Source: an uncultured Gammaproteobacteria bacterium
Lineage (GTDB): Bacteria > Pseudomonadota > Gammaproteobacteria > Xanthomonadales > SZUA-36
NCBI GenBank assembly: GCA_963766195.1
Contig: CAVXYY010000018.1
Location: 81,753-145,752, forward strand
Direction of reading: 5' to 3'
Length of the DNA stretch: 64,000 nt
Shown one piece after another: positions 25,310 through 57,394 of this stretch (positions are counted from its first letter, which is position 1; the number at the start of each line of letters is the position of its first letter). The position numbers and the translations under genes are program-made. The notes beneath the pieces were generated by a model that was not told where the DNA came from, did no database searches, and saw only the letters and a list, made by a program, of their open reading frames with translations.

Positions 25310-26455
25310 TCACAGAAGTCGTTTCCAGGCGCCGACCAGTTCATCAGCCGCCCGGTCAACGTGAATTTTCGTGGTGCCACGGCCGAGCGTCAGTCGAACG
25401 CTGCCCGCCGCTGATTCCAGCGGGATACCCATCGCCAGGATGACCGCGGACGCTGAGTCCTTTCCTTCGTGACAGGCAGAGCCAGTGGATGCGGCGACAG
25501 CCGGGCATTCCGCCAGCAGGGCATTGCCGGAAACCCCGGGAAAGCGGACGTTCAGCGTGTTGGGCAAACGATCGACGGGATGTCCGTTGAGGGCCAGGCC
25601 GGGAATCTGCCCGTTCAGACGGTCCCACAGGTGATCGCGCAGGGCGGTGATGCGCAAAGACTCCTTCGCCAGGTCCCGGTGTGCGATCGCGCAAGCCCGG
25701 CCCAGGCCGGCGATGGCGGCAACGTTTTCGGTGCCCGGGCGCAGGCCGCGTTCATGCCCGGCGCCCAGCAGCAAGGGTTCAATGCCGGTCCCGGAGCGAA
25801 CGAATAGTGCCCCGACGCCTTGCGGCGCGTAAAGCTTGTGCCCTGCAACCGACAACAGGTCCACCCCTTCGCGTCGCACGGATACGGCAACCTTGCCAAG
25901 AGACTGGGCTGCATCGGTATGCATCAGCGCGCCCGATGCATGGGCGATTCCGGCTATTTCACCAATGGCCTGCAGTGTGCCCGTTTCGCTGTTGGCATGC
26001 ATGACCGTGACCAGGAGGGTGTTCCCGCCAATGACCGAACGGATATCCGGCAGCTTCACGGCGCCCGCTTCATCCACGGCTACCCGGTCTACCTGGTACC
26101 CCTGGCCCTCGAGAAAAGCGCAGGGACCGGAGGTCGCCGGGTGCTCGATTACAGAGGTTACGATGTGCTGACGGCCGGGGTTTGCCGCGGCCACCCCCCG
26201 GATCGCCAGGTTGTTGGCTTCCGTCCCGCCCGAGGTGAAATAAATTTCCCTGGAATGACAATCGATCAGCCGGGCAAGTTGTTCGCGCGCCTGTTCCACG
26301 GCGTCGCGCATGGCCCGGCCATAGACGTGGGTGCTGGAAGGATTGCCATAGTGTTCCGACAGGTACGGCAGCATCGCTTCGAGCACTTCCGGCAACACCG
26401 GTGTGCTCGCATTGTGATCGAGATAGATGGGTTTGAGGAACCTCTGATCAGTCAT
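25310..26455 (-). CDS. Cysteine desulfurase (NifS/IscS-like class V aminotransferase)
   Basis: IYLDHNASTP, GNPSSTH, FTSGGTEANNLAIRG, the PLP lysine in SVAGHKLYAPQGVGALFVR, and the active-site loop ASTGSACHE. Confidence 0.88.
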   Translation of the reverse strand: MTDQRFLKPIYLDHNASTPVLPEVLEAMLPYLSEHYGNPSSTHVYGRAMRDAVEQAREQLARLIDCHSREIYFTSGGTEANNLAIRGVAAANPGRQHIVTSVIEHPATSGPCAFLEGQGYQVDRVAVDEAGAVKLPDIRSVIGGNTLLVTVMHANSETGTLQAIGEIAGIAHASGALMHTDAAQSLGKVAVSVRREGVDLLSVAGHKLYAPQGVGALFVRSGTGIEPLLLGAGHERGLRPGTENVAAIAGLGRACAIAHRDLAKESLRITALRDHLWDRLNGQIPGLALNGHPVDRLPNTLNVRFPGVSGNALLAECPAVAASTGSACHEGKDSASAVILAMGIPLESAAGSVRLTLGRGTTKIHVDRAADELVGAWKRLL

Positions 26456-26523
26456 CTCTCGATGATACGCTGAATAAGAGGGTTAATCCGGGTGCCTGCA
26501 GTGGTCCAAGCTCAGAGTTTGAA

Positions 26524-26916
26524 TCAGGCAGTCTCCAGGCCGGCACTATAGGCGGCAAGATCCTCCATCATCCGCGCGTGCAGGTTTTTGCCTTTCTTGC
26601 TGAGCGACAGGCGACGGACCCGGCGGTCTGATTCGTCGATCACCTGTTTGATCCACCCCCGGCCGCCGCGGGTTTCACCAAGCTGGGAAATCACCCGGGA
26701 TACCGTCTTGGCCGAAAGCCCGGTCAATTGGGCAACCTCGATCTGGGTCGCGCCATCGTTACTGGCGACGCACCAGAATACCGCGTAACTGGAAAGTGAC
26801 GCCTCGGTCTGTCCCAGCAGTTTCAGCGGTTGTGAAAAGGCCCTGGAAAACAGGCCGGTCAATGCCCGTTCAGAAATGACACTGCTGACGCTGATGGGTT
26901 GGTCATTGTTGTTCAT
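26524..26916 (-). CDS. MarR-like winged-helix regulator
   Basis: 130 aa with an HTH (ATQIEVAQLTGLSAKTVSRVISQL) and a wing (DESDRRVRRLSLSKKG). It lies between the photoreceptor-like regulator and the cysteine desulfurase on the same strand. Confidence 0.75.
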   Translation of the reverse strand: MNNNDQPISVSSVISERALTGLFSRAFSQPLKLLGQTEASLSSYAVFWCVASNDGATQIEVAQLTGLSAKTVSRVISQLGETRGGRGWIKQVIDESDRRVRRLSLSKKGKNLHARMMEDLAAYSAGLETA

Positions 26917-26977
26917 TAGATAATCTTAACATACGACAAAGCGAATCATTGACTGTACACGCCCGGCCATTACCGTT

Positions 26978-27892
26978 TTATGACAGCAGTTCATCCATCA
27001 TCTGCAGGCCGTGGTCAATGTCCCGGCCCAGGGCCACAGCACCAGCACGGTTGATGGCATCAAATCCGTATACGGACGAAAGCCCCCCGACCAGGACCGG
27101 CACGCCGGCCTCGCTGACCAGCGCGGGCAGGCTTCTGGAAAGCGTCTTCAAAGAGGGTTCGATCGCACCGGAAAGGAGGATAGCCGAGCAACCTTTCATT
27201 TTTGCTACCGACGCCAGCTCTTCGAGCGGCATGTTGGCTCCGAGTGGAATGATGCGATAACCCGCGGCATCAGCCGCCAGGGCAAACAGAAGTAATCCAA
27301 TCTCGTGGTATTCACACGGCAGCCCTGCCAGCAAAACCAGCGGCCCGCTGTTTATACGTGACCGGTGATGATAGCGGGCACCCAGTTTGTTGCGCAGGTA
27401 GAAAGAGAAAAAATGTTCCTCGGCGATACTGCCTTCCTGGTCTACCCAGCGCAATCCCAATTCAATCAAAAGCGGCGTCAGGAGATTTCGTGTAACCAGC
27501 CCGATCGGATACAGCGACAGCGCCTCGTTGTAAATCTCCTCCAGGCGTACCTCGTCGAACGCAATGATCGCAGCGATCATATTGTTGAGGTAATTCCTCC
27601 AGACATCCGGTTTGCTGTCCTGGCTGGCTGATAAATCGCTTTCCAGCATACCTGGGCTGATCTGGCTGATGCGAACCCCCTGCTGGGTCAGGGCCGTGAT
27701 GCGGTTGATCTGGTCGATGTGCTCACGGGTATACAGCCGGTGACCACTGTCCTTCCTGACCGGCTCTATCAGGCCGTGCCGGCGCTCCCACGCGCGCAGC
27801 GTGATAGCGCCTACACCGGTCAGTTTCGATACGGTGCCAATCGTGTACAGCTTTTCGTCAGGGTAATCCGTCTCGTTTGCTTGTGCGTTCAT
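26978..27892 (-). CDS. carH: MerR-family regulator with a B12-binding domain (CarH/LitR-type light-responsive repressor)
   Basis: MerR HTH (YTIGTVSKLTGVGAITLRAWERRHGLIEP...GHRLYT). W149-x9-E159-H160 (RWVDQEGSIAEEHFF, nt 27413-27448). E-x-H-x-x-G (CEYHEIGLL, nt 27296-27313) followed by a Rossmann-like B12 domain. Confidence 0.8.
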   Translation of the reverse strand: MNAQANETDYPDEKLYTIGTVSKLTGVGAITLRAWERRHGLIEPVRKDSGHRLYTREHIDQINRITALTQQGVRISQISPGMLESDLSASQDSKPDVWRNYLNNMIAAIIAFDEVRLEEIYNEALSLYPIGLVTRNLLTPLLIELGLRWVDQEGSIAEEHFFSFYLRNKLGARYHHRSRINSGPLVLLAGLPCEYHEIGLLLFALAADAAGYRIIPLGANMPLEELASVAKMKGCSAILLSGAIEPSLKTLSRSLPALVSEAGVPVLVGGLSSVYGFDAINRAGAVALGRDIDHGLQMMDELLS

Positions 27893-27939
27893 TAGTAATC
27901 TCGTGGGAATTAGCTTTTAAAGAAATAATGCATTTGTAA

Positions 27940-27970
27940 ATACTATACATTATATATACACGTTTGGCAA
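27940..27970 (-). promoter_or_regulatory. Putative sigma70 promoter of the carH-like gene overlapped by two tandem 11-bp repeats
   Basis: Minus strand: TTGCCA (27970-27965), 17-nt spacer, TATAGT (27947-27942). Plus-strand repeats ATACTATACAT (27940-27950) and TATATATACAC (27951-27961) cover the spacer and -10. Confidence 0.5.
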
Positions 27971-27997
27971 AATAATTAAATAAACACAAAATAATAC

Positions 27998-28036
27998 TTG
28001 CAATAACTATACAGTAACTGTACATTACTTCATGCT
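27998..28036 (+). promoter_or_regulatory. Putative sigma70 promoter of the 28150-37493 operon overlapped by tandem 11-bp direct repeats (candidate CarH operator)
   Basis: TTGCAA (27998-28003), 17-nt spacer, TACATT (28021-28026). Repeats TAACTATACAG (28004-28014), TAACTGTACAT (28015-28025) and degenerate TACTTCATGCT (28026-28036). The first two fit nAnnTnnACAn exactly. Confidence 0.55.
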
Positions 28037-28149
28037 CCAGTAACGAAGAACGTTGACGGAGCTGAATTTAAGGCGGTTTTTAGACTTTTTCGGACCAGCG
28101 ACCGCCGCAGATGACACAAAAATTGTACAAAACTTAATAGGAGATTCAC

Positions 28150-29268
28150 ATGATCAAGGTAAAGGCCGCTGTCTCAACAGCCCTATTGATGACCATGAGT
28201 TCGTCTGCGTTTGCTGCAGCCAAGGTTGCCGTAGCGCACTTTGCGCCGTTCGCCGATACTGTCGACGGAACGGCTGTAAACATTTCAGTAAACGGAACCC
28301 CGGTCGATGCATTGCAGGGAGTCAAGTTCAAGGACTTTACCGGTTATATCGATTTTGACGCCGGCACTTACACGATCGACGTGATCCCGGTGGGAGCAAC
28401 CGATCCGGCGATTACAGGTGAGTTCACCCTTACCGATGGAACCAGCTACACGGTTTATGCAGCAGGTGACGGCGTGAAGCAGGACCTGGAGTTGCGCGCG
28501 CTGGTTGATGACACAACCACGCCGGCAGCCGGGAACCTGAACATCCGGGTAGTCCACGCCGCGCCATTCGCAGCCGACCTGGCAGCCACCGAGGTTTCCA
28601 TCCGCACTGCTGACGGGATGCTGGTTAACAACCTGACAGGCGTGCCTTACAACGTCGACAGCGGCTTTTTCGAAATACCTGCCGGCACTTACGACCTCAA
28701 GGTCGCTTCCAATGATGGTTCAGTGAACTACATTGATCCCCTTCCGGCTGCTTTGCCGGCCGGCGCCAATGTAACCGTGTATGCGGTCGGTGATGGCATG
28801 AACCAGCCCCTCGGTATTATTGCTTTCCCGGTCGGAGAACTGGCAACGCGCACTCCGGTTGACAACTCGACCAATGGAACCTGGGAAATCATCGAAGGGT
28901 CCGGCACCGGTTTTATCTTCCAGCCGATCCCTGCGCAGAATCGCGCCACGGGTACCTGGTACACCTATGATGCAGACGGAAACCCGCTGTTCCTCTCATT
29001 TGACAGCTGCCTGGAGCAGGTCAATGAAATGGGCGACTTCGAATGTTCCACCCCAGGCGCCTTTGATGGAGAAATGGCTACCACTTCACTGTACCTGAGC
29101 ACCGGTGGCGGCCCGTCTGAAGACGATGTGGTTGAAACTGTTAAAATTGGTGAGATTGACTTCGAGTTCTCGGGCTGCCTTGATGCCATGGCCACCGTGC
29201 GACTGGACGGTGAACCGGCCGCGATGTACACGGCTGCGAATCTGACCGCGGCATTCTGCAACGACTAG
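28150..29268 (+). CDS. Exported DUF4397-repeat protein with a Cys-containing C-terminal domain of unknown function
   Basis: Signal peptide (ALLMTMSSSAFAA). Two DUF4397-like repeats (VAHFAPFADT...YTVYAAGDG; VVHAAPFAADL...VTVYAVGDG). The C-terminal segment carries NGTWEIIEGSGTGFIF...GTWYTYDADGNPLFL. AGGAG RBS. Confidence 0.75.
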   Translation: MIKVKAAVSTALLMTMSSSAFAAAKVAVAHFAPFADTVDGTAVNISVNGTPVDALQGVKFKDFTGYIDFDAGTYTIDVIPVGATDPAITGEFTLTDGTSYTVYAAGDGVKQDLELRALVDDTTTPAAGNLNIRVVHAAPFAADLAATEVSIRTADGMLVNNLTGVPYNVDSGFFEIPAGTYDLKVASNDGSVNYIDPLPAALPAGANVTVYAVGDGMNQPLGIIAFPVGELATRTPVDNSTNGTWEIIEGSGTGFIFQPIPAQNRATGTWYTYDADGNPLFLSFDSCLEQVNEMGDFECSTPGAFDGEMATTSLYLSTGGGPSEDDVVETVKIGEIDFEFSGCLDAMATVRLDGEPAAMYTAANLTAAFCND

Positions 29269-29299
29269 TCATACCTCTTTACCAAAACAGGACTTACTG

Positions 29300-30382
29300 A
29301 TGAGCACAGCCGCTATCAAAGCATCAAGTACCGTCCTTGACTGGACAGAACGCGGCCTGGTGCCGGACAGCGTATTACGCGCCGGCATCAGGCGGCTCTG
29401 CCGTCAACGACTGAAGGACATCAGGGCGGGAGATATCGAAACCTCCGGCCATATGACGGAAGCCTTTATCGATTACATGAACGGGTCGGAGATTGCCCTC
29501 GTACCCGAACTTGCCAATGAACAGCACTACGAACTTCCGCCGGAGTTTTTCAGCACCGTGCTGGGCCATCACGCCAAGTACAGCTGTTGTTACTGGGGCG
29601 ACGGGGTCCGGACACTGGATCACGCCGAGGCCGCCGCACTGGAGATCAGTTGTCAGCGGGCAGACATCCGGAACGGCATGGATGTGCTGGATCTCGGCTG
29701 CGGCTGGGGTTCTTTAAGCCTCTGGATTGCCGCGCATTTTCCGGCATGCAAGGTCACCTCGGTCTCAAATTCAAAACCGCAGGGTGAATACATCCGGAAA
29801 CTGGCCCGGGAACGCGGTCTGTCCAATATTGAAGTGCTGACCGCCGACATGAACAACTTCCAGGCACCCGGGCAGTATGACCGCATCGTGTCCGTTGAAA
29901 TGTTCGAGCACATGAGGAATTACCGCGAGTTGTTTGCTCGCCTCAGCCAGTGGCTCAAGCCGGATGGAAAATTCTTCATGCACATTTTCTGTCACCGGAA
30001 CACGCCCTACGAATTTCTGGATGAGGGGCCGTCCGACTGGATGGGCCGTCATTTCTTTTCCGGTGGAATCATGCCCAGCGATGATCTGCCGCTGCGCTTC
30101 CAGGAACGGCTGCACCTTTTGAGGCGCGACCGCTGGAGCGGAAATCATTACGAAAAAACCGCAAATGCCTGGTTGGCCAACATGGACAGCAGGAAAGACC
30201 GCATCATGCCGATGTTTGCCGAGACATACGGGGAGGCGGACGCCGAGCGCTGGTTCCAGCGCTGGCGCATTTTCTTCATGGCCTGTGCGGAGCTGTTTGC
30301 CTTTAACAATGGTGAAGAGTGGTTTGTCTCACACTACCTGTTCGGTCTGCCGAGTCACACAGGTGAAGGAGCGCAGCCGTGA
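29300..30382 (+). CDS. SAM-dependent methyltransferase of the cyclopropane-fatty-acyl-phospholipid-synthase family
   Basis: HYELPPEFF, the SAM motif VLDLGCGWGSLSLWIA and VSVEMFEHM. Length 360 aa. Confidence 0.85.
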   Translation: MSTAAIKASSTVLDWTERGLVPDSVLRAGIRRLCRQRLKDIRAGDIETSGHMTEAFIDYMNGSEIALVPELANEQHYELPPEFFSTVLGHHAKYSCCYWGDGVRTLDHAEAAALEISCQRADIRNGMDVLDLGCGWGSLSLWIAAHFPACKVTSVSNSKPQGEYIRKLARERGLSNIEVLTADMNNFQAPGQYDRIVSVEMFEHMRNYRELFARLSQWLKPDGKFFMHIFCHRNTPYEFLDEGPSDWMGRHFFSGGIMPSDDLPLRFQERLHLLRRDRWSGNHYEKTANAWLANMDSRKDRIMPMFAETYGEADAERWFQRWRIFFMACAELFAFNNGEEWFVSHYLFGLPSHTGEGAQP

Positions 30383-30990
30383 TCAGGGTGGTGGTCAACC
30401 TGGCGGCGTCTGAAGCCGGTTGGCTTGCCTGCGTTTCCGGGGCAGCCAACGGCATGCCCTGGGCCGGTCCGCTGGTCGTGCTGGCATTTGTAGCGACTCA
30501 TCTGTGGTTGTCGAAACGGCCGGGCCCTGAATTAACACTGGTCATTCTGGCGGTATTGATCGGCCTGGTTGCAGACAGCGCTTTGGTTGTTACAGGTCTT
30601 GTCAGTTATCCCTCCGGAACCTGGATCGAAGGATTTGCGCCGTACTGGATTCTTGCCATGTGGGCGATGTTTGCAACCACTCTGAACGTCTCGATGAGAT
30701 GGTTGCGCAACCGTAATGCCCTGGCCGCTGCGCTGGGGGCGGTCTTCGGACCGCTGGCTTACCTCGCGGGCCAGGAGTTTGGCGCGATCACGTTCAACCG
30801 GACGGCTATGGCGATCGCTGCGCTTGCCGTCATCTGGGCTGTGGCGATGCCGCTTCTCGTGGTGCTGGCCCGCCGGCTGGATGGCGTCAGTGAAAAGAGG
30901 CCTCCGGACTTTATCCTGCGTGACTGGAGGACATCACGGGCGCCGCAGGCGACTCGCCGGCCCCGGTTGGGGGAGTCTGGCAATGCCTGA
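30379..30990 (+). CDS. DUF2878-type membrane protein
   Basis: Five hydrophobic helices. The GTG start overlaps the preceding stop. The family name is recalled from its frequent position next to cfa-like genes and was not verified. Confidence 0.65.
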   Translation: MIRVVVNLAASEAGWLACVSGAANGMPWAGPLVVLAFVATHLWLSKRPGPELTLVILAVLIGLVADSALVVTGLVSYPSGTWIEGFAPYWILAMWAMFATTLNVSMRWLRNRNALAAALGAVFGPLAYLAGQEFGAITFNRTAMAIAALAVIWAVAMPLLVVLARRLDGVSEKRPPDFILRDWRTSRAPQATRRPRLGESGNA

Positions 30991-31795
30991 GTTGAGCGCC
31001 TGGTTCTGGTCATTGCTCGCTGTGCTGATGGTGTCAGTAGTGGCGTGGCTGGTCAGTGTTGTCCGCCGTGATGTGAGCATCGTCGATAGCTTGTGGTCCC
31101 TGATGATCCTGCTGTGCGCGCTGGTCTACGTGGTTCTGGCCGAGGACACCGGCCCGCGGACCGTGATGTTAATCGCCCTGCTGTCAGCGTGGGCAATACG
31201 GCTTTCGCTCCACATTACCCTGCGTAACCACGGCCAGCCCGAAGACCGGCGATACGCGGAAATTCGCCGCAACAACCAACCGTACTTCGAATGGAAAAGC
31301 CTGTATATCGTATTCCTTTTCCAGGGTTTTTTGGCCTGGGTGATCTGTCTGCCCGTCGTCGCGGCTGTCGGCGGCCAGACACCACCCGGGCCGCTTGATT
31401 ATGCCGGGATCGCGCTGTGGATGGCCGGCATGTTTTTTGAAGTCACGGGTGACTACCAACTGGCCCGTTTCCGCCGCAGTGAGCGGACCTCCGACGAGGT
31501 GCTGGATACCGGCCTGTGGCGCTACACGCGGCATCCGAACTACTTCGGCGAGGCCGTAATCTGGTGGGGTTTTTACCTGCTGGCGCTTTCGGCTGGAGCG
31601 TGGTGGACCATTTTTGCCCCGTTACTGATGACCTTCCTGTTGTTGAAGGTATCAGGTGTTGCCATGCTGGAAAAAGATATCGCAGGGCGCCGGCCTGCAT
31701 ACCGCGACTATATCAGGCGAACCAATGCCTTCTTTCCGGGCCGGCCGAAATATGAAGCGCACCAGCCCGGTTCACAACACACTGGCGGAGGTTAG
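30983..31795 (+). CDS. DUF1295 / steroid-5-alpha-reductase-like membrane protein
   Basis: The ATG at 30983 overlaps the upstream gene by 8 nt. Contains GLWRYTRHPNYFGEAVIWWGFYLLA near the C-terminus. The tracked ORF start at 30716 is an out-of-context extension. Confidence 0.8.
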   Translation: MPELSAWFWSLLAVLMVSVVAWLVSVVRRDVSIVDSLWSLMILLCALVYVVLAEDTGPRTVMLIALLSAWAIRLSLHITLRNHGQPEDRRYAEIRRNNQPYFEWKSLYIVFLFQGFLAWVICLPVVAAVGGQTPPGPLDYAGIALWMAGMFFEVTGDYQLARFRRSERTSDEVLDTGLWRYTRHPNYFGEAVIWWGFYLLALSAGAWWTIFAPLLMTFLLLKVSGVAMLEKDIAGRRPAYRDYIRRTNAFFPGRPKYEAHQPGSQHTGGG

Positions 31796-31799
31796 CAGG

Positions 31800-32495
31800 A
31801 TGGAATACAGAAGAAACAAGCTGATTGAAGTGCTGGTCGCCTCCGGCCTGTCGATCGTTATGCTACTCGCAGCCGGGCCATCGTTCGCAGAACCGGCCCC
31901 TGGCGACGACGGAGCCATGGGAAGCGCGTGGAAATTCCGGGTGTACCTGGATGACAAGGAAATCGGCTACCACCACTTTTACCTCGCAGAATCGGGAAAT
32001 ACCCGGCAACTCAAGAGCGTCGCCAACTTTGAATACAACCTGATGTTTGTCCGCCTGTTTCATTATGAGCATGAGAACAACGAGATCTGGAATGGCGATT
32101 GCCTTCAGAGCATCGATTCACAAACCGATTCCAATGGCAAGCCGTTCCGGGTTAACGGCCGCCGCGCTGCCGGTGAATTCCGGGTTTCGGCCAATGGCGG
32201 TGAGGAATCGCTGCCGGAGTGTGTCATGACGTTTGCTTACTGGAATCCCGCGTTTCTCGAGCAGTCATCTTTGCTCAACTCCCAGGACGGTGAATTCCTC
32301 GAGGTCGAGGTTTCCGAGCCTGTTTTCGAACAACTGGAAGTCGAAGGTGCACAACTTCCGTCCTATCGCTATCATCTGGCCGCCGGCGCACTTAAACTCG
32401 ATCTGTGGTACTCCACGGACAGCAATTGGCTGGCCCTTGAAAGCGAAGTGCGGGGTGGCCGCATGCTTCGATACGTGAGGTATGATGATGCTTAG
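31800..32495 (+). CDS. Exported beta-rich protein of unknown function
   Basis: ATG at 31800 after GGAGG. Signal peptide (LVASGLSIVMLLAAGPSFAEP). I cannot confidently name a family. Confidence 0.6.
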   Translation: MEYRRNKLIEVLVASGLSIVMLLAAGPSFAEPAPGDDGAMGSAWKFRVYLDDKEIGYHHFYLAESGNTRQLKSVANFEYNLMFVRLFHYEHENNEIWNGDCLQSIDSQTDSNGKPFRVNGRRAAGEFRVSANGGEESLPECVMTFAYWNPAFLEQSSLLNSQDGEFLEVEVSEPVFEQLEVEGAQLPSYRYHLAAGALKLDLWYSTDSNWLALESEVRGGRMLRYVRYDDA

Positions 32496-33012
32496 AAAAT
32501 CACTGTTGAGCCTGTCCGGAGCAGTCCTGCTGTCAGGCTGCCAGGCCAGTCTGCCCGCACTCGAAACCGTCGATTACGTGGATCTCGAGCGCTTCATGGG
32601 GGACTGGTACGTGATTGCGAATATCCCGACCTTCGTCGAGAAAGGGGCGCATAACGCGGTGGAATCCTATCGCCTGGATGAAGACGGCACCATTGCCACG
32701 ACGTTTACTTTTCGGAAGGATGCTTTCGACGGGCCGGAGAAACAGTACCATCCGCGGGGCTTCGTGCGAGACACCCAAAGCAACGCCGAATGGGGTATGC
32801 AATTTATCTGGCCGTTCAAGGGCGACTACCGGATCATTTACCTGGCGGACGACTACTCTGCCACCATCATCGGGCGAACGAAGCGGGATTACGTGTGGTT
32901 GATGGCCCGCTCACCCGAGATGAGCGCTGACGCCTACCGCGAGGCGGTGCAATTTATCGAACGCGCCGGATACGATACGGCTGATTTGCAACGTGTTCCG
33001 CAGAAGTGGTGA
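32482..33012 (+). CDS. blc: Bacterial lipocalin (outer-membrane lipoprotein Blc-like)
   Basis: Lipobox LLSGC, then the lipocalin signature LERFMGDWYVIANIP and YRIIYLADDYSATIIG...YVWLMARSP. Confidence 0.85.
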   Translation: MMMLRKSLLSLSGAVLLSGCQASLPALETVDYVDLERFMGDWYVIANIPTFVEKGAHNAVESYRLDEDGTIATTFTFRKDAFDGPEKQYHPRGFVRDTQSNAEWGMQFIWPFKGDYRIIYLADDYSATIIGRTKRDYVWLMARSPEMSADAYREAVQFIERAGYDTADLQRVPQKW

Positions 33013-33016
33013 CGCC

Positions 33017-34321
33017 TTGAAAATTGCAATCATCGGCACCGGGATTGCCGGAAACGTAGCCGCTTACCGCCTGGCGCAACAACATGACATCACGGTTTTC
33101 GAAGCCGATAGCCGTATCGGCGGCCACACCAACACGGTTGATGTCGTTGCCGCCGGCCAACGGTGGGCCGTGGACACCGGGTTCATCGTATTCAATAACG
33201 TCACTTACCCGAACTTCATTTCCCTGCTCGATGAACTGGGGGTTGATTCCCAGGACAGTGACATGAGTTTCAGTGTCCGCAATGAGCGCAATGGCCTGGA
33301 ATACAATGGAGCCTCGCTCAACGCCCTGTTCGCCCAGCGCACAAACCTGCTGAAGCCCTCCTTTTACCGGATGTTGGCGGATATCCTGCGCTTTAACCGG
33401 GAAGCGCCGGCGCTGCTTGACCAGCCGGGCAACCCGGTAACCCTGGGTGAATACCTGGATTCAAACGGTTACTCAAAAGGTTTTATTGACCACTATATCG
33501 TTCCCATGGGCGCGGCGATCTGGTCTGCTACCCCGGGTGGAATGCGGGCTGTTCCGGCGACGTTCTTCATCCGCTTTTTCCACAACCACGGTTTGCTGTC
33601 GGTTAATCAGCGTCCCGTATGGCGGGTGGTCAGGGGCGGCTCGCGGAGCTACGTGGAAAAACTGGTGGCCGGACACCGGGACCGGATTCGCCTCGATACA
33701 CCGGTAGAATGGATTCGCCGGCATCCCGGGTATGTTGAAGTCAAGGCCAGGGGTGCGGCGGTGGAGAAGTTTGACCGTATTTTCCTGGCTTGCCACAGCG
33801 ACCAGGCTCTGGAACTCCTCGCTGACCCGACTCCCGAGGAACGCGCCGTTCTGGGCGCTATCCGCTACCAGCAAAACGAGGCGGTCCTTCACACCGACCA
33901 GTCACTGATGCCAAAGCGGCGCCTGGCATGGGCGGCCTGGAATTACCATATTCCGCAAGGCGCCTCGGATCCGGAAGGCAAGGCCGCTCTGACCTACAAC
34001 ATGAATATCCTGCAAAGCCTTGCCGCGCCGGTGCAGTTTTGCGTCACGTTGAATTACACGGCGGCAATCGATCCGGGCAAGATCATCCAGACCTTCAACT
34101 ATACGCACCCGGTTTTCACCGAAAAAGCGGTTGCTGCCCAGCAACGTCACCGCGAAATCAACGGTGCGCGCCGGACCTATTTCTGTGGCGCCTACTGGCG
34201 CTATGGTTTTCATGAAGACGGCGTGGTCAGTGCGATTGCCGCACTGGATCATTTCAACGCAGACGGGGCCGGTTCTGAGAGTCTATATCATGAAGAGCGC
34301 GATTTACGCCGGGCGGGTTAG
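33017..34321 (+). CDS. FAD-dependent oxidoreductase (amine-oxidase / phytoene-desaturase-like)
   Basis: Dinucleotide fold KIAIIGTGIAGNVAAYRL...VFEA..RIGGHT. The start is taken at TTG 33017, 5 nt after the blc stop. GTG at 32993 is an alternative. Confidence 0.85.
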   Translation: MKIAIIGTGIAGNVAAYRLAQQHDITVFEADSRIGGHTNTVDVVAAGQRWAVDTGFIVFNNVTYPNFISLLDELGVDSQDSDMSFSVRNERNGLEYNGASLNALFAQRTNLLKPSFYRMLADILRFNREAPALLDQPGNPVTLGEYLDSNGYSKGFIDHYIVPMGAAIWSATPGGMRAVPATFFIRFFHNHGLLSVNQRPVWRVVRGGSRSYVEKLVAGHRDRIRLDTPVEWIRRHPGYVEVKARGAAVEKFDRIFLACHSDQALELLADPTPEERAVLGAIRYQQNEAVLHTDQSLMPKRRLAWAAWNYHIPQGASDPEGKAALTYNMNILQSLAAPVQFCVTLNYTAAIDPGKIIQTFNYTHPVFTEKAVAAQQRHREINGARRTYFCGAYWRYGFHEDGVVSAIAALDHFNADGAGSESLYHEERDLRRAG

Positions 34322-35066
34322 GCACCGGCGCATCAAGCCGGTCGCGCATGAGTTCAGCTACCGGATGTTCATGATGTATCTCGATCTGGCCGAGCTTCCG
34401 GAAGTTTTCCAGGGACGCTGGCTCTGGTCCTCTCGCAGGCCGGCACTGGCCCGGTTCCGTCGCGAAGACCACCTCGGTGATCCTGCCGTGCCACTTGCAG
34501 ACGCTGTCCGGGATCTTGTCCGCGTTAAAACAGGGCAACGCCCTTCCGGGCCGATCCGGTTACTGACCCAGTTGAGCTATTTTGGGTACGTTTTTAATCC
34601 GGTGAGCTTTTATTATTGTTATAACGCGGACGACACCGAATTGGAGACCATCGTGGCCGAGGTGAATAACACCCCCTGGGGTGAAAGGCACTGCTACGTG
34701 CTGTCACCGGACATGAATCAGGGTGTCGCCGGCCACAAGCGCTATTTTCCGCCGAAAGAGATGCACGTGTCGCCATTCATGCCAATGGACATCGACTATG
34801 ACTGGCGTTTCAATACACCCAATGAAGAATTAACGGCGCACATGGAGAATGCTCGCGAGGGGTGCAAGATATTTGACGCTACGATCGTGCTGCAGCGGGA
34901 GGAAATCAGTGGCCGCTCCCTGGCGCGCGTGCTATTTACTTTTCCCTTGATGACCGTAAAAATAATCCTGGCCATCCATTGGCAGGCTCTGAAGCTCTGG
35001 GGCAAGGGCGTCCCGGTGCATGATCATCCCGCTAAAGGCAAACCCGGACTGGAGAGTGCAGGATGA
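34290..35066 (+). CDS. DUF1365-family protein
   Basis: The ATG at 34290 gives MKSAIYAGRVRHRRIKPVAHEFSYRMFMMYLDLAEL, the typical DUF1365 N-terminus. It overlaps the oxidoreductase gene by 32 nt. Confidence 0.8.
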   Translation: MKSAIYAGRVRHRRIKPVAHEFSYRMFMMYLDLAELPEVFQGRWLWSSRRPALARFRREDHLGDPAVPLADAVRDLVRVKTGQRPSGPIRLLTQLSYFGYVFNPVSFYYCYNADDTELETIVAEVNNTPWGERHCYVLSPDMNQGVAGHKRYFPPKEMHVSPFMPMDIDYDWRFNTPNEELTAHMENAREGCKIFDATIVLQREEISGRSLARVLFTFPLMTVKIILAIHWQALKLWGKGVPVHDHPAKGKPGLESAG

Positions 35067-36325
35067 AGTCTGTTTCGCTTTCGTCGCCACGCCACCTTGC
35101 AGGCACCGTCAAGCCGACCATGCTGGATAACCTGGCCCGCCGTTCGGTGCGGCGGCAGCTTGAAAAACTGGACACCGGCTCACTCAGCCTGGTCGATGGG
35201 GCGCAGGAGCTTCGATTCGGGCCGGCCAACCCTTCCGGGGTCAGCGCGCACCTTCGGGTAAAAGATCCGAGGTTCTACAGCGAAATCGCATTCGGCGGGT
35301 CAATCGGTGGCGGTGAAGCCTACATGCACGGCTACTGGGACTGCGACGACCTGGTGTCCGTAGTCCGCCTGCTGTTACAAAACCGGCATGTGCTGGATGG
35401 CATGGAAAAAGGCATTGCTCGTGTGACCGAACCGCTGCAAAAACTGTTTCACTGGGTCAATCGAAATACGCACGAGGGAGCGCGCCGGAATATCTCTGCG
35501 CACTACGACCTGGGTAATGAATTCTTCGCCTTGTGGCTGGACGAAACAATGATGTATTCGGCAGCCATTTTCGAAAATCAGCAAACCAGTCTGCACGATG
35601 CTCAAATCGCGCGCATGAAGCATATCTGTGAGCGTTTACAGCTCAAGCCCGATGAGCACCTCGTGGAAATTGGCACGGGCTGGGGAAGTTTTGCCCTCTA
35701 TGCGGCGCAAAACTACGGTTGCCGGGTCACCACCACGACCATTTCGCGCGAACAGTACGAGAAAGCCAAAGAGCGGGTCGCGCAAGCCGGCCTGGAAGAC
35801 CGCATTTCTGTGCTGTTCGAGGATTTCCGGAATCTCGAAGGTCAATACGACAAGCTGGTTTCGATAGAAATGATCGAGGCAATCGATCATGCCTTGTTTG
35901 ATACGTATTTCAGCAAGTGCAGCCAATTGTTAAAAGCGGATGGCGTCATGCTGATCCAGGCGATCACCATCGCGGACCAGCGTTACGAGGAATATCGCAG
36001 ATCGATCGACTTCATCCAGCGCTACATATTCCCCGGCAGCGGGCTGCCGTCATCGGCCGTTATGACCGATTGCGTCGCCCGCATGACCGACATGCGCCTG
36101 CTGGGCATCGAAGACATTGGTCTGCACTACGCCACGACGCTGAACCACTGGCGCAAAAACTTTTTCGCGCAGATCGACGAGGTCAGGCAGCAGGGCTTTT
36201 CGGAAGCGTTTATCCGGATGTGGGAATACTATCTTTGCTATTGTGAAGGTGCTTTTCTGGAGCGCGCAATTTCCGATGTGCAGATCCTGTTCGCCAAGCC
36301 CGAAAGCCGGTTGAAAACCCTTTAG
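35063..36325 (+). CDS. cfa: Cyclopropane-fatty-acyl-phospholipid synthase
   Basis: HYDLGNEFFALWLD.TMMYSAAIF, the SAM motif LVEIGTGWGSFALYAA, and SIEMIEAI...YFSKC. Length 420 aa with an ATGA overlap upstream. Confidence 0.9.
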   Translation: MKSVSLSSPRHLAGTVKPTMLDNLARRSVRRQLEKLDTGSLSLVDGAQELRFGPANPSGVSAHLRVKDPRFYSEIAFGGSIGGGEAYMHGYWDCDDLVSVVRLLLQNRHVLDGMEKGIARVTEPLQKLFHWVNRNTHEGARRNISAHYDLGNEFFALWLDETMMYSAAIFENQQTSLHDAQIARMKHICERLQLKPDEHLVEIGTGWGSFALYAAQNYGCRVTTTTISREQYEKAKERVAQAGLEDRISVLFEDFRNLEGQYDKLVSIEMIEAIDHALFDTYFSKCSQLLKADGVMLIQAITIADQRYEEYRRSIDFIQRYIFPGSGLPSSAVMTDCVARMTDMRLLGIEDIGLHYATTLNHWRKNFFAQIDEVRQQGFSEAFIRMWEYYLCYCEGAFLERAISDVQILFAKPESRLKTL

Positions 36326-36335
36326 GAGAAGGCCC

Positions 36336-36842
36336 TTGAGTTCCCGCATGGTCGTCGTGAAGGACCGGATGCAATCCGGTTACCATTACCTGTGCACGGA
36401 ACCCGAGGGTCGGAACTTCCACCCGGAATTCAAACCGGAGCTGACCCCGGCGCAAATGCTCGAGATGGGCGTTTTCGGTGGAAAATACCTGACCGACTGC
36501 CAGCAGGAGTTTCCCGCTGAGTGGTTTCAGAAGGCCAAGCTGAGCCCGGAGAAAGCAAACCACCGCCTCAATTTCTTCGGGGTCCATGCCTCCAAGCCCC
36601 TGGCTTACTGGATCGAAAAAGGCTGGATCTGGCCGGAAGATCCGCGGGGCTGGTTTCAGTGGTACTGCCGTTATTACATGGGCCGCCGTTGTGACGACGA
36701 TGCCCGGCAGATCGGGCGCTGGAAAGCCATGACAAGGCACATTGCACAGCTTCGCAAGAACTGCATCAAGGGTGATTTGCTGTGCCGGCCCAGGCAACGC
36801 CAGGCCCTGCTCCACTGGGCCTACGATTCGCGCAAGTTTTGA
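36336..36842 (+). CDS. Trp/Cys-rich conserved hypothetical protein
   Basis: 168 aa (GVFGGKYLTDCQQEFPAEWF...DPRGWFQWYCRYYMGRR). TTG start 7 nt after AGGAG. Its codon usage resembles its neighbours, but I did not recognise a family. Confidence 0.6.
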   Translation: MSSRMVVVKDRMQSGYHYLCTEPEGRNFHPEFKPELTPAQMLEMGVFGGKYLTDCQQEFPAEWFQKAKLSPEKANHRLNFFGVHASKPLAYWIEKGWIWPEDPRGWFQWYCRYYMGRRCDDDARQIGRWKAMTRHIAQLRKNCIKGDLLCRPRQRQALLHWAYDSRKF

Positions 36843-36872
36843 TCAGCGCAACAAACTACCTGAGGTAAAAAA

Positions 36873-37493
36873 ATGAAGAAAGGGCTGATGGCTTTGGCTT
36901 TTGGAACGCTTGCAATTGTGGCTGAAAGACTTCCTGCAATTGAGGAAGCAGAGTACCTGGTCGTTCAGAAATCCGGGGATATCGAGCTGCGTGATTACTC
37001 GCCATCCATCGTGGCTGAAACGCTGGTCAAGGATGATTTTGAAGACGCCGGCAGCAAGGCGTTCAAAAAATTGTTCAAGTACATCTCAGGTGCAAACACG
37101 GCGCAGGACAAAATTGCGATGACCTCGCCGGTGGCACAGGAAAAACGCCCGGAAAAAATCGCAATGACCTCACCTGTCGGCCAGCGGGCGGCAACAGAGG
37201 GTTGGGCGGTGAGTTTCATGATGCCAGCGAGCTACACAATGGACACGATCCCCAGCCCAACAGACCCGCAGGTTGTGATCCGTGAAATTCCGGCCTATCG
37301 CGCGGCTGTTATTCAGTACTCGGGTCGCTGGACCGAAAAAAATTTCCAGGAACACCTCGCGCTTCTCCAGGACTGGATGGTGAAAAGTGAGATACGGGCA
37401 GCCGGAGAGCCGGTATGGGCCCGATACGATCCACCCTTCAAGCCTTGGTTCATGCGGCGCAACGAAATCCTGATTCCCGTTCAACAGCAGTGA
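36873..37493 (+). CDS. SOUL/HEBP-family haem-binding-like protein (exported)
   Basis: Signal peptide. YEVR-like start (EYLVVQKSGDIELRDY), FKKLFKYISGAN and a duplicated KIAMTSPV motif, with the C-terminal NEILIPV typical of SOUL proteins. Confidence 0.8.
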   Translation: MKKGLMALAFGTLAIVAERLPAIEEAEYLVVQKSGDIELRDYSPSIVAETLVKDDFEDAGSKAFKKLFKYISGANTAQDKIAMTSPVAQEKRPEKIAMTSPVGQRAATEGWAVSFMMPASYTMDTIPSPTDPQVVIREIPAYRAAVIQYSGRWTEKNFQEHLALLQDWMVKSEIRAAGEPVWARYDPPFKPWFMRRNEILIPVQQQ

Positions 37494-55879: not shown

Positions 55880-55950
55880 TGGGTGTTCCTGCCTTTTTCA
55901 GTAACTACACTAATCGGAAAAATATGCGCCAACAGAAAGCTTTAACCGGA
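55880..55950. other. Compositional and taxonomic breakpoint (GC-rich proteobacterial sequence to AT-rich Bacteroidota-like sequence)
   Basis: Base composition, third-codon-position preference and ribosome-binding-site usage all change here. The boundary can only be placed to within about 50-100 nt by eye. Confidence 0.6.
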
Positions 55951-56238
55951 AATTGAAGGCCGCATTGATGGCCCTCATCCGTTTGGATTTGCACCGATCC
56001 ATCATGAAACGGCGGCTTACATGATATTGCTGTGGAATCTTGGAGTCGTTGACGTAGAAAGGAGAAAGACGCCAACTGGCTCTATGCAGTAAGAGAATTT
56101 AGTCAGGAAGACAAAGTAAACTGGATCCTTTCACTGCCCGATGCCAGCGAACATTTACTTAAGGAAGGCAGTTTTATTTTTCCGGTAACGCAATGTGTAA
56201 CGATGATGGTAAAAGTAGGCGAAACAGAAAGTGGCTGA
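55924..56238 (+). pseudogene. Possible frame-shifted coding remnant
   Basis: Three consecutive short open frames read MRQQKALTGN*, then PEIEGRIDGPHPFGFAPIHHETAAYMILLWNLGVVDVERRK..., then ...KEKDANWLYAVREFSQEDKVNWILSLPDASEHLLKEGSFIFPVTQCVTMMVKVGETESG*. They look protein-like, but I cannot name a family. Confidence 0.2.
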
Positions 56239-56340
56239 GCCTCTTTTTGAAAAGAAAGAACTGGAAATAGCATTTGAAAAATGTATTCCTTTTGATTTTG
56301 TAAGAAGAAAGGCAAAGGATTTTATTTTATTAAAAGTAGA

Positions 56341-56364
56341 CTGTACAGTGTACGCTGTACAGTG
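56341..56364. repeat. Direct repeat CTGTACAGTG-tacg-CTGTACAGTG
   Basis: Two exact 10-bp copies lie 4 bp apart, each containing the palindrome TGTACA, within an AT-rich non-coding stretch. Confidence 0.5.
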
Positions 56365-56598
56365 AAAAAATAGTATTGCCCTTCGTTTACTACTTACATA
56401 TTATTGTTGTGGCATGTCGGTAGCTATGATTCCATTTGTATAGCAGTACGTTTACTGTGCTGTTATTTTTTTATCTTACTGATTCCCATTCAATTGCCTC
56501 AATGCCTGATGAAAGCCGGTGAATCATTTAAAATAAATACAACTTGAGCTTATGGGATCAACTGGAAGGTTTAGGTCAGCCATCGTTAGTTGGGATCT

Positions 56599-56631
56599 GA
56601 AAAACCCTGGCTCATATTGCATGAACCAGGG
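56599..56631 (-). terminator. Rho-independent terminator after the 56642-56929 gene
   Basis: The minus strand reads CCCTGGTTCA-tgcaata-TGAGCCAGGG (9/10 paired) followed by TTTTT. Confidence 0.6.
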
Positions 56632-56641
56632 CAGCATTTAT

Positions 56642-56929
56642 CTAGTCGACCAACTCTATCTCAATAGCCGAATGAACACGGATATTTTTATTCAACATTT
56701 TTGCCTCTTCAAAAACGGATTCAAGATATTTACCCATTTCCTTTAGTTCAACTACCCGTTGCCTGGAAAACAGATCCGGTTTTCCAAAACGTTCTTCGGA
56801 GCTCCAGTTACGCAGGTTATGAAAATTAATTTTACTGTGGATCATCTGCATAAGCATTTCTCTTATATCTCTTATTTCCACAGTGTCAAATGTACCTTCA
56901 ATAAGTTTTAATGTTTCAGTCTTTGTCAT
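56642..56929 (-). CDS. Small hypothetical protein, paralogue of 57141-57383
   Basis: 95 aa. Shares L-x-LIEG-x-F...E..DI...M....KI.FH and a C-terminal N-I-x-x-x-A-I-x motif with the 80-aa protein upstream. Confidence 0.5.
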   Translation of the reverse strand: MTKTETLKLIEGTFDTVEIRDIREMLMQMIHSKINFHNLRNWSSEERFGKPDLFSRQRVVELKEMGKYLESVFEEAKMLNKNIRVHSAIEIELVD

Positions 56930-57113
56930 AGCTATTTTGTTTTTTGTTATTATTGATTCCTGGAGTCCAGCACATACCGATTAAGGAGAGCAGGGCCAGG
57001 GAAGTAAAAAATTTATTTCCCAGTGCATCTGTTGTTGTATATGAATAAATAAATCCCATTACAAAAAGGATGGCACAGACCAATAGCAGGAAATTTTGTT
57101 TGAATCGTTGCAT
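56916..57113 (-). CDS. Small two-TM membrane protein (hypothetical)
   Basis: 65 aa with two hydrophobic segments (FLLLVCAILFVMGFIY; FFTSLALLSLIGMCW). It overlaps the downstream gene by 14 nt. Confidence 0.4.
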   Translation of the reverse strand: MQRFKQNFLLLVCAILFVMGFIYSYTTTDALGNKFFTSLALLSLIGMCWTPGINNNKKQNSYDKD

Positions 57114-57140
57114 GTTTTATTTTTTAATATTTAGGGAATA

Positions 57141-57383
57141 TCAATTCATCTGTATAGCGGCGTTGATATTTACTCCGGCCGTCTGGCTCTTCATGTGCTG
57201 CCTGAGTTGATCCAGTTCATGCTGCAGACTTTTTATCTTTTTTTCCCTCATTTTAATATCTTCCTGGTTATGGTTATTATTAATTTTCTCTTCGTGAAAC
57301 TTAATCTTTACCGCTACCATTTTTGAAATGATATCAATACTTTCAGCTGGTGTAAATTTTCCTTCAATTAATGTCAGGTTCAT
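57141..57383 (-). CDS. Small hypothetical protein, paralogue of 56642-56929
   Basis: 80 aa with an N-terminal LTLIEGKFTPAESIDIISKMVAVKIKFH and a central coiled-coil-like region. It lies 11 nt downstream of icd. Confidence 0.5.
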   Translation of the reverse strand: MNLTLIEGKFTPAESIDIISKMVAVKIKFHEEKINNNHNQEDIKMREKKIKSLQHELDQLRQHMKSQTAGVNINAAIQMN

Positions 57384-57394
57384 GGTTTATCAGT

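What the first reader, a model, noticed from the sequence alone, without database searches (positions are those of the whole stretch)
27929..28036. Two back-to-back promoters, each overlaid by tandem 11-bp direct repeats resembling the CarH operator
**Plus strand.** TTGCAA-N17-TACATT (27998-28026) would drive the 11-gene operon.

**Minus strand.** TTGCCA-N17-TATAGT (27970-27942) would drive the regulator itself.

**Repeats over both promoters.** In both cases the spacer and -10 are covered by head-to-tail 11-bp units:
- TAACTATACAG / TAACTGTACAT / (TACTTCATGCT) over the plus-strand promoter
- ATACTATACAT / TATATATACAC over the minus-strand promoter

Three of the four strong units fit nAnnTnnACAn exactly. 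As I recall, that is the consensus of the 11-bp direct repeats bound by the Thermus CarH tetramer; this should be verified.

**Predicted behaviour.** Repression in the dark and simultaneous light induction of the regulator and the operon.

**Extra copy.** A further single copy-like unit (TGACTGTACAC, 26951-26961) lies between the regulator and the downstream MarR gene.
Basis: partly seen in the sequence, partly recalled or inferred. Interest (0 to 1): 0.6.

Follow-up and report, generated by a model that had tools for sequence, protein, structure and literature searches.

The report
B12 light-repressor operators on two promoters
A vitamin-B12-type light-sensing repressor gene sits back-to-back with an 11-gene membrane-lipid protection operon, and conserved docking sites for that repressor cover both promoters. 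This is a well-known kind of light switch, here in uncultured estuarine bacteria and controlling lipid genes rather than pigment genes.

Summary
All four 11-bp units and both promoter-like hexamer pairs are at the stated coordinates. Only the "extra copy" is off by one base (26950-26960).

The repeats are not chance:
- A simulation with the intergenic region's own composition gave two 11-bp-spaced TRTACR pairs in 0 of 20,000 trials.
- In 78 related upstream regions, hexamer pairs at exactly 11 bp occur 98 times against 0.045 expected.
- Non-palindromic hexamers point the same way 226 to 15.

Conservation also marks the promoters:
- Operon: TTGCAA-N17-TACATT.
- Regulator, minus strand: TTGCnA-N17-TATAGT.

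The regulator aligns full-length with Thermus CarH. It keeps Wx9EH and the lower-axial His motif.

Best reading: a class I (adenosyl-B12) CarH/LitR repressor occludes both promoters in the dark and releases them in light.

Neither is conserved.

New here: a conserved lone unit (28120-28130) just before the first gene's ribosome-binding site. It lies a fixed 105 bp (10 helical turns) from the promoter operator.

This is a new member of a known kind, of moderate interest. Binding, B12 dependence and light response are inferred, not shown.

The parts
26978..27892 (-). carH/litR-like regulator gene, 304 aa: MerR winged-helix head, four-helix-bundle domain and Rossmann B12-binding domain
   Evidence: Pfam MerR_1, B12-binding_2 and B12-binding. 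Residues 14-253 align to Thermus CarH 5C8D/3WHP, E about 1.6e-26. Wx9EH at 149-160; ExHxxG-x41-SxA-x25-GG from 194.
27940..27961 (+). Operator site 1: two tandem 11-bp direct repeats (ATACTATACAT, TATATATACAC). They lie over the -10 and spacer of the regulator's own promoter.
   Evidence: Sequence. Hexamer pair conserved at 11-bp spacing in 39 of 40 loci with >=60% identity. Consensus AatACTaTACattAt.TaTAC.
27942..27970 (-). Regulator promoter: -35 TTGCCA (27970-27965), 17-nt spacer, -10 TATAGT (27947-27942)
   Evidence: Promoter scan, 10 of 12. Both 'gcAA' (TTGC on the minus strand) and 'ACTaTA' are conserved at the same spacing in relatives.
27993..28003 (+). Possible degenerate third repeat (AATACTTGCAA) that contains the operon's -35 TTGCAA (27998-28003)
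   Evidence: It is in 11-bp register with site 2 and ends in GCA. The conservation of TTG could equally be due to the -35 alone. In Thermus, one repeat includes the -35 (PMC9304148).
28004..28025 (+). Operator site 2: two tandem 11-bp direct repeats (TAACTATACAG, TAACTGTACAT). They lie over the spacer and -10 of the operon promoter.
   Evidence: Sequence. The only exact nAnnTnnACAn x2 match in the window. Consensus TA.cTaTACA.aa.cTgTACA in 30 loci.
27998..28026 (+). Operon promoter: -35 TTGCAA, 17-nt spacer, -10 TACATT. Start predicted near 28032-28035.
   Evidence: The TTG of the -35 and the TT that completes TACATT are nearly invariant in 30 loci. The bases after the hexamers at site 1 are not. 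RNA contigs on the operon side begin at 28035 or later in 5 runs. However, position 28035 is polymorphic and a DNA contig also breaks there.
28120..28130 (+). Site 3: lone repeat unit AAATTGTACAA (hexamer 28124-28129), 10 nt before the Shine-Dalgarno GGAG (28140-28143) and 105 bp from the second hexamer of site 2
   Evidence: Consensus cTgTACAAAACtT, with the T of the next 11-bp unit also kept. The distance is exactly 105 bp in 14 loci whose leaders are only about 39% identical. No conserved RNA structure.
28150..37493 (+). Eleven-gene target operon: DUF4397, CFA-synthase-like, DUF2878, DUF1295, DUF6134, lipocalin, FAD oxidoreductase (UfaD-like), DUF1365 (UfaO-like), CFA synthase, an unknown 168-aa protein, SOUL
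   Evidence: Pfam. The FAD oxidoreductase, DUF1365 and CFA-synthase-like genes follow the order of R. sphaeroides RSP1091-1089 (PMC7380195). Linkage to carH is conserved in two gene arrangements.
26950..26960 (+). Probably not functional.
   Evidence: Kept in L007 only, already mutated in L006. Only 3 of 40 loci have any hexamer in this gap.

Best explanation
The 257-bp intergenic region holds two back-to-back sigma-70-type promoters. One drives a class I (adenosylcobalamin-type) CarH/LitR repressor gene. The other drives an 11-gene operon for photo-oxidative membrane-lipid protection, resembling the furan-fatty-acid/CFA cluster.

Each promoter is overlaid by two tandem 11-bp direct repeats with the core cTrTACA, both pairs in the same orientation on the plus strand.

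In the dark, B12-loaded CarH oligomers would sit on these repeats and cover the -10 and spacer of each promoter, shutting out RNA polymerase. Light would cleave the Co-C bond of the cofactor, the oligomer would fall apart, and both promoters would fire together.

A third, lone repeat just before the first gene's ribosome-binding site probably adds a further contact or a roadblock.

Shown here: the repeats, their conservation, spacing and orientation; the conserved promoter hexamers; the CarH sequence hallmarks; the conserved linkage of regulator and operon.

Inferred: binding by this protein, B12 dependence, oligomeric state, light release, and the exact transcription starts.
For: Regulator:
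- MerR + B12-binding_2 + B12-binding domains.
- Residues 14-253 align to Thermus CarH, E about 1.6e-26.
- Wx9EH, ExHxxG, GxxW and GxxxP are present, and W149, E159, H160 and H196 are invariant in 12 homologs.

Repeats:
- They fit the footprinted CarH repeat nnnnTnnACAn.
- 98 hexamer pairs at exactly 11 bp in 78 related upstream regions, against 0.045 in shuffles.
- The orientation of non-palindromic hexamers is 226 to 15. The repeats face the same way at two promoters that face opposite ways, so they are not promoter elements themselves.

Promoters:
- The -35 and -10 hexamers are conserved around both sites with 17-nt spacers.
- Published CarH operators likewise overlap the -35 or -10, and operators with two good repeats plus degenerate ones have been footprinted.

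Linkage and regulon:
- carH is linked to the CMAS/DUF2878/DUF4397 cluster in two different gene arrangements.
- LitR-family regulators are already known to control related light-protective genes. The Pseudomonas LitR regulon includes ufaM, and the V. cholerae MerR-like regulator acts in a blue-light response in which a cfa gene is induced.

Expression:
- Both transcription units appear in estuarine metatranscriptomes, and 9 of 10 runs have no RNA contig across 27895-28034.
- All 4 DNA runs cover that gap.
Against: - No binding, B12 or light data exist for this protein.
- Each site has only two good repeats, against three in Thermus and four in B. megaterium.
- The Rossmann motif reads SxA, not SxV/T. 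The window's protein has Cys193 where relatives have the Gly of GxxH. The His next to the capping Trp, the light-state ligand in Thermus, is absent.
- The plus-strand promoter is weak by consensus, 8 of 12.
- One RNA-run contig (X14, 27903-28036) crosses the supposedly silent gap.
- The RNA contig boundary at 28035 coincides with a C/T polymorphism where a DNA contig also breaks, so it is not a mapped start.
Confidence: 0.78

Rival explanations
1. The regulator binds these repeats but does not itself sense light through B12. It would behave like Myxococcus CarA or the Pseudomonas class II LitRs, as a constitutive repressor released by a partner such as a LOV protein, an antirepressor or a singlet-oxygen signal.
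For: Class II LitRs recognise the same TRTACA hexamer and control related genes, including ufaM. The window's protein deviates from the signature at GxxH (Cys193) and at SxV/T, and lacks the His next to the Trp.
Against: Class II LitRs lack the Rossmann B12 domain, and CarA lacks Wx9EH. Here both are present and invariant in homologs. The class II site is an inverted pair spaced N12; that spacing (18 bp start to start) occurs once in 78 regions, against 98 cases of 11 bp. No LOV or antirepressor gene lies next to the regulator.
Confidence: 0.1
2. The regulator works as a classical MerR-type activator. It would sit in the promoter spacer and remodel the DNA to switch transcription on, rather than blocking polymerase.
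For: The DNA-binding head belongs to the MerR family, and the repeats lie in the promoter spacers.
Against: MerR-type activation relies on over-long 19-20-bp spacers and a palindromic site (established knowledge of the family). Here both spacers are the optimal 17 nt, and the sites are direct repeats that also cover the -10. Characterised CarH/LitR proteins are repressors.
Confidence: 0.05
3. The repeats are bound by a different protein, such as the MarR-like regulator downstream, or they are structural or promoter elements with no link to the CarH-like protein.
For: No binding data exist. A MarR-like gene follows carH in many relatives. The region is AT-rich, and TATACA resembles a -10 hexamer.
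Against: The repeats match the footprinted CarH unit in sequence, period and tandem direct layout. They keep one orientation at two opposed promoters. They travel with carH in loci that lack the MarR gene and in the co-directional arrangement. MarR proteins typically bind palindromes (established knowledge).
Confidence: 0.05

Closest known systems
CarH / class I LitR of Thermus thermophilus (PDB 5C8D, 5C8E, 5C8F, 3WHP), Bacillus megaterium and Myxococcales
   Same: Same three-domain architecture. Wx9EH cap and lower-axial His. Operator of tandem 11-bp direct repeats (nAnnTnnACAn / nnnnTnnACAn) overlapping -35 or -10. The regulator's own promoter is included. Divergent gene layout as in Thermus.
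   Different: The target is a lipid-modifying operon, not carotenoid genes. Each operator has two good repeats rather than three or four. An extra lone repeat sits next to the ribosome-binding site at a fixed 105 bp. There is no His after the capping Trp. The host is an uncultured estuarine/sediment gammaproteobacterium (relatives are labelled Chromatiales or Lysobacterales MAGs).
Haliangium ochraceum, Sorangium and other myxobacterial CarH operators with one or two good repeats plus degenerate ones (PMC9304148)
   Same: [quoted passage not shown]
   Different: Those control carotenoid clusters. No phased distal lone repeat has been described.
Class II LitR of Pseudomonas (PplR1, PmlR2) with short LOV partners (PMC9758184)
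   Same: Same recognised hexamer T(G/A)TACA. Repressor logic. Sites at the -35 and between the start site and the start codon. The regulon includes furan-fatty-acid synthase UfaM and photoprotective genes.
   Different: Class II proteins lack the Rossmann B12 domain and need a LOV antirepressor. Their site is an inverted pair spaced N12, not direct repeats at an 11-bp period.
Singlet-oxygen sigma-E/ChrR regulon of Rhodobacter sphaeroides (RSP1091-1087, UfaD/UfaO) and the V. cholerae blue-light response (PMC7380195, PMC5241685)
   Same: Same kind of target genes (FAD desaturase-like, DUF1365, CFA-synthase-like) and the same presumed purpose, protecting membranes from photo-oxidation.
   Different: There the signal is singlet oxygen, sensed through an anti-sigma factor. 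Here the wiring points to direct light sensing by a B12 repressor.

Membership tests
CarH / class I LitR (AdoCbl photoreceptor repressors) | N-terminal MerR-type winged-helix DNA-binding domain | tested here: met
   Pfam MerR_1 at 9.9e-16, residues 16-79. Aligns to the Thermus CarH DNA-binding domain.
CarH / class I LitR (AdoCbl photoreceptor repressors) | [quoted passage not shown] | tested here: met
   W149-x9-E159-H160. Present in all 12 aligned homologs. Defined as essential in PMC8156234.
CarH / class I LitR (AdoCbl photoreceptor repressors) | ExHxxG with the lower-axial His | tested here: met
   E194-Y-H196-E-I-G199, aligned to Thermus ERHEIG. H196 is invariant.
CarH / class I LitR (AdoCbl photoreceptor repressors) | Rest of the classic B12 motif: x41-SxV/T-x22-27-GG | tested here: inconclusive
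   The spacings are exact (x41, x25) and GG269-270 is invariant. The triplet reads S-G-A, so the strict pattern fails.
CarH / class I LitR (AdoCbl photoreceptor repressors) | SignatureFinder light signature GxxW, EH, GxxH, GxxxP | tested here: inconclusive
   GxxW (146-149), EH and GxxxP (218-222) are met. GxxH is not met in the window's protein (Cys193) but is met in most relatives. Signature from PMC11796333.
CarH / class I LitR (AdoCbl photoreceptor repressors) | Operator of tandem 11-bp direct repeats nnnnTnnACAn overlapping the -35 or -10 | tested here: met
   Two pairs in register, conserved, in one orientation, over the -10 and spacer of both promoters.
CarH / class I LitR (AdoCbl photoreceptor repressors) | AdoCbl-dependent oligomerisation and DNA binding in the dark, lost on illumination | not testable with these tools
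   Needs purified protein, AdoCbl and light.
Class II LitR (Pseudomonas PplR/PmlR) | Retains only the four-helix bundle and has no Rossmann B12-binding domain | tested here: not met
   The Rossmann domain is present with the His ligand.
Class II LitR (Pseudomonas PplR/PmlR) | Binding site is an inverted pair, T(G/A)TACA-N12-TGTA(C/T)A | tested here: not met
   A start-to-start spacing of 18 occurs once, against 98 cases of 11. Non-palindromic hexamers are direct, 226 to 15.
Classical MerR-type activators | Palindromic operator inside an over-long 19-20-bp promoter spacer | tested here: not met
   Both spacers are 17 nt and the repeats are direct.

The most novel reading that the evidence does not exclude
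The lone repeat beside the ribosome-binding site is a working part of the switch. It would be held by the spare fourth DNA-binding domain of the tetramer on the promoter operator, or by a second oligomer, closing a small repression loop of about 10 helical turns that light would open. CarH repression would then involve DNA looping, which has not been described for this family. The fixed 105-bp spacing despite free sequence drift would be its footprint.
Probability: 0.2. Interest if true: 0.6.

Novelty: new member of a known kind. Interest (0 to 1): 0.4.

Why it matters
- **A non-pigment target.** It extends the B12 photoreceptor CarH, known almost only as a switch for carotenoid genes, to a conserved lipid-remodelling operon. 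That operon includes homologs of the furan-fatty-acid enzymes UfaD and UfaO and several domains of unknown function (DUF4397, DUF2878, DUF1295, DUF6134).
- **Abundance.** The arrangement is common in uncultured estuarine and sediment Gammaproteobacteria: 434 confirmed metagenome loci in one scan.
- **A functional lead.** It gives those unknown genes a testable 'light protection' label.
- **Direct light sensing.** In these bacteria, light itself, rather than singlet oxygen via sigma-E/ChrR, may trigger this regulon.
- **A compact operator set.** The set is well defined and could serve for binding studies or optogenetic parts.
- **The phased lone repeat.** This is a small, testable addition to CarH operator design.

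Tried and rejected
The window's other genes show no B12 genes.
- **Known RNA family in the intergenic region.** None found; only a chance-level PrfA hit, E = 0.45.
- **Conserved RNA structure in the constant-length leader.** None. RNAalifold gave 0 pairs on the MAFFT alignment and on the ungapped alignment, and the mean z-score is -0.9.
- **Mapping the transcription start from metatranscriptome contigs.** Only weakly informative. The boundary at 28035 coincides with a polymorphic site where a DNA contig also breaks, and one RNA-run contig crosses the gap.
Not conserved.
- **A second promoter at site 3.** Two RNA contigs start at 28124 and 28127, but there are no conserved -35/-10-like hexamers upstream.
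- **The TGTACA cluster at 56341-56362 as a further operator.** Its spacing is 14, not 11, it is a palindrome, and it lies in a gene-poor AT-rich island. It is left as a side note.
- **The primary Thermus and B. megaterium operator papers.** Not held in the library. Reviews were used instead.

Full report
**The observation**

- Plus strand: TTGCAA (27998-28003), 17 nt, TACATT (28021-28026).
- Minus strand: TTGCCA (27970-27965), 17 nt, TATAGT (27947-27942).

The four units are ATACTATACAT (27940-27950), TATATATACAC (27951-27961), TAACTATACAG (28004-28014) and TAACTGTACAT (28015-28025). Three fit nAnnTnnACAn. All four fit nnnnTnnACAn.

The 'extra copy' is at 26950-26960, one base left of the stated position.

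The repeat finder adds that the two sites are 27-nt direct copies of each other, 64 bp apart.

The promoter scan independently reports the minus-strand promoter at 10 of 12 matches. The plus-strand one has 8 of 12 and falls below that tool's threshold.

**Chance**

- The double nAnnTnnACAn pattern occurs once in the 64-kb window, against 0.06 expected.
- The looser TnnACA-N5-TnnACA occurs three times against 1.1 expected, twice here.
- The specific TRTACR-N5-TRTACR occurs only at these two places.
- The intergenic region is AT-rich (33% GC, against 56% for the window), so I simulated sequences with its own dinucleotide make-up. One pair arose in 0.14% of 20,000 trials, and two pairs never arose.

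**The regulator**

The 304-aa product of 26978-27892 (minus strand) has MerR, B12-binding_2 and B12-binding domains. Residues 14-253 align to Thermus thermophilus CarH (5C8D, 3WHP), E about 1.6e-26.

The literature defines CarH homologs by two motifs, Wx9EH and ExHx2G-x41-SxV/T-x22-27-GG (PMC8156234).
- Here W149-x9-E159-H160 is present.
- E194-x-H196-x-x-G199 is present, followed by x41-S-G-A-x25-GG. The spacings are exact, but the triplet has Ala where V/T is usual.

Of the SignatureFinder elements GxxW, EH, GxxH and GxxxP (PMC11796333), three are met. GxxH is not met in this protein (Cys193), although most relatives have Gly there. The His next to the capping Trp, which becomes a ligand in light-exposed Thermus CarH, is absent.

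The protein therefore belongs with class I (B12-type) LitR/CarH. It does not belong with the Pseudomonas class II proteins, which lack the Rossmann domain (PMC9758184).

**Comparative test**

I fetched 86 related loci:
- six from named MAGs, labelled Chromatiales, Lysobacterales or uncultured Gammaproteobacteria;
- 80 from metagenomes, out of 434 confirmed.

In 78 distinct upstream regions:
- TRTACR hexamers lie exactly 11 bp apart 98 times. Shuffles give 0.045 on average and never more than 1.
- 39 of 40 loci with at least 60% regulator identity have one such pair, and 30 have two.
- Non-palindromic hexamers point the same way as in the window 226 times, and the other way 15 times.

This orientation result is informative. 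The two promoters face opposite ways but the repeats do not, so the repeats are not simply promoter elements.

**What is conserved around the sites**

- **Site 2** has the consensus gcTTGcAaTA.cTaTACA.aa.cTgTACATT. The TTG of the -35 and the TT that completes TACATT are nearly invariant, while the bases between the hexamers drift.
- **Site 1** has the consensus AatACTaTACattAt.TaTAC.ta.tt.gcAA. On the minus strand this is TTGCnA, 17 nt, TAtAGT.

The unit on the other side, which contains the -35, is the better candidate for a degenerate repeat, but its conservation may be due to the -35 alone.

The 'extra copy' after the regulator gene is kept in one 90%-identical relative and lost in another. 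Only 3 of 40 loci have any hexamer there.

**A third site**

A lone unit (AAATTGTACAA, 28120-28130; hexamer 28124-28129) lies 10 nt before the Shine-Dalgarno of the first operon gene.
- Its consensus is cTgTACAAAACtT. The T that would start the next 11-bp unit is also kept.
- Its distance from the second hexamer of site 2 is exactly 105 bp in 14 loci whose leader sequences are only about 39% identical without gaps (minimum 19%). It is 104-108 bp in many more.
- The other true length classes are 51, 95/96 and 114/116 bp.
- All classes lie within 0.2 turn of whole numbers of helical turns at 10.5 bp per turn. They do not fit at 10.0 or 11.0 bp per turn.
- I found no conserved RNA structure in the leader and no Rfam match.

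A constraint on DNA geometry is therefore the more likely reason for the fixed length. This phasing test is post hoc and the loci are related to one another, so I rate it as suggestive only.

Pseudomonas PmlR2 also has a second site between the transcription start and the start codon.

**The target and its linkage**

The operon (28150-37493) encodes DUF4397, a CFA-synthase-like methyltransferase, DUF2878, DUF1295, DUF6134, a lipocalin, an FAD oxidoreductase, DUF1365, a CFA synthase, an unknown 168-aa protein and a SOUL protein.

The FAD oxidoreductase, DUF1365 and CFA-synthase-like genes follow the order of R. sphaeroides RSP1091 (UfaD), RSP1090 (UfaO, a DUF1365 protein) and RSP1089. That is the singlet-oxygen operon needed for furan fatty acids (PMC7380195).

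carH is linked to this cluster in two arrangements:
- divergent from DUF4397-CMAS, as in the window;
- co-directional, as the first gene before CMAS-DUF2878.

More distant relatives keep the pair at the operon promoter. On the regulator side they space further hexamers 22-23 bp apart, that is, every second unit.

**RNA evidence**

Ten estuarine metatranscriptomes hold parts of this locus, as assembled contigs only.
- Operon-side contigs begin at 28035, 28043, 28071, 28124 and 28127.
- Nine of the ten runs have nothing in 27895-28034.
- All four DNA runs cover that gap.

This fits a start just after the proposed -10, but it is not a mapped start:
- Position 28035 is a C/T polymorphism, and a DNA contig also ends at 28034, so the boundary may be an assembly break.
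- One RNA-run contig (X14) spans 27903-28036.

**Mechanism and rivals**

The best-supported mechanism is the established CarH mechanism. B12-loaded oligomers bind one face of tandem 11-bp repeats over the core promoter in the dark, and light releases them. Operators with only two good repeats plus degenerate ones have been footprinted.

- A classical MerR activator is unlikely, because both spacers are 17 nt and the sites are direct repeats.
- A class II-like, partner-dependent repressor is unlikely, because the B12 hallmarks are intact and the site layout differs.
- Binding by another protein is unlikely, because the repeats travel with carH through both gene arrangements.

**Verdict**

It is a new member of a known kind: a B12-type CarH switch, here on a lipid-protection operon in uncultured estuarine Gammaproteobacteria.

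**Limits**

I could not define the full regulon or check B12 supply.

Earlier notes of this scan (unverified AI notes) had already flagged the regulator's motifs and the operon. They also report CarH operators before DUF4397 genes in other phyla. I used these as leads only.

Noticed in passing
window 56340-56363 (within 55880-57394): A perfect-armed palindrome, ACTGTACAG-TGTACG-CTGTACAGT, lies in a 1.5-kb AT-rich, gene-poor stretch. It uses the same TGTACA core, but the cores are spaced 14 bp apart, not 11. Two small ORFs in the stretch (56642-56929 and 57141-57383, minus strand) look like paralogs of each other.
   Followed up: partly
window 28027-28123 and the matching leaders of L001, L006-L018, L026: The untranslated leader keeps an exact length (105 bp between the site 2 and site 3 hexamers) in 14 loci, while its sequence drifts to about 39% identity. 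No conserved RNA fold was found.
   Followed up: yes
L061, L063, L064, L067, L081, L084 (upstream of the regulator): In relatives with 50-54% identity, the regulator-side operator is two or three 'ttcTATACAaa' units spaced 22-23 bp apart (every second 11-bp unit). The operon promoter keeps a tight 11-bp pair.
   Followed up: partly
L004, L005, L048-L058, L066, L076, L078-L080, L083: A second gene arrangement exists: carH is the first gene of the CMAS-DUF2878 operon rather than divergent from it. There is no DUF4397 gene in between, and a repeat pair lies next to a TTGACA upstream.
   Followed up: partly
window 25310-26916, minus strand; L006, L008, L010, L013-L015: The order carH, MarR-like gene, class V aminotransferase (NifS-like) is conserved in many relatives, so these may form one light-controlled transcription unit.
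   Followed up: partly
window 27903-28036: One metatranscriptome contig (run X14) spans both operators and ends at 28036. It could be DNA carry-over, or a transcript that the two-promoter model does not predict.
   Followed up: no
window 28035: A C/T polymorphism among environmental strains, at which both DNA and RNA contigs break. It lies at the predicted transcription start.
   Followed up: partly
window 27314-27316 (codon of residue 193 of the regulator): The window's regulator has Cys where nearly all relatives have the Gly of the GxxH signature, three residues before the B12-ligand His.
   Followed up: no
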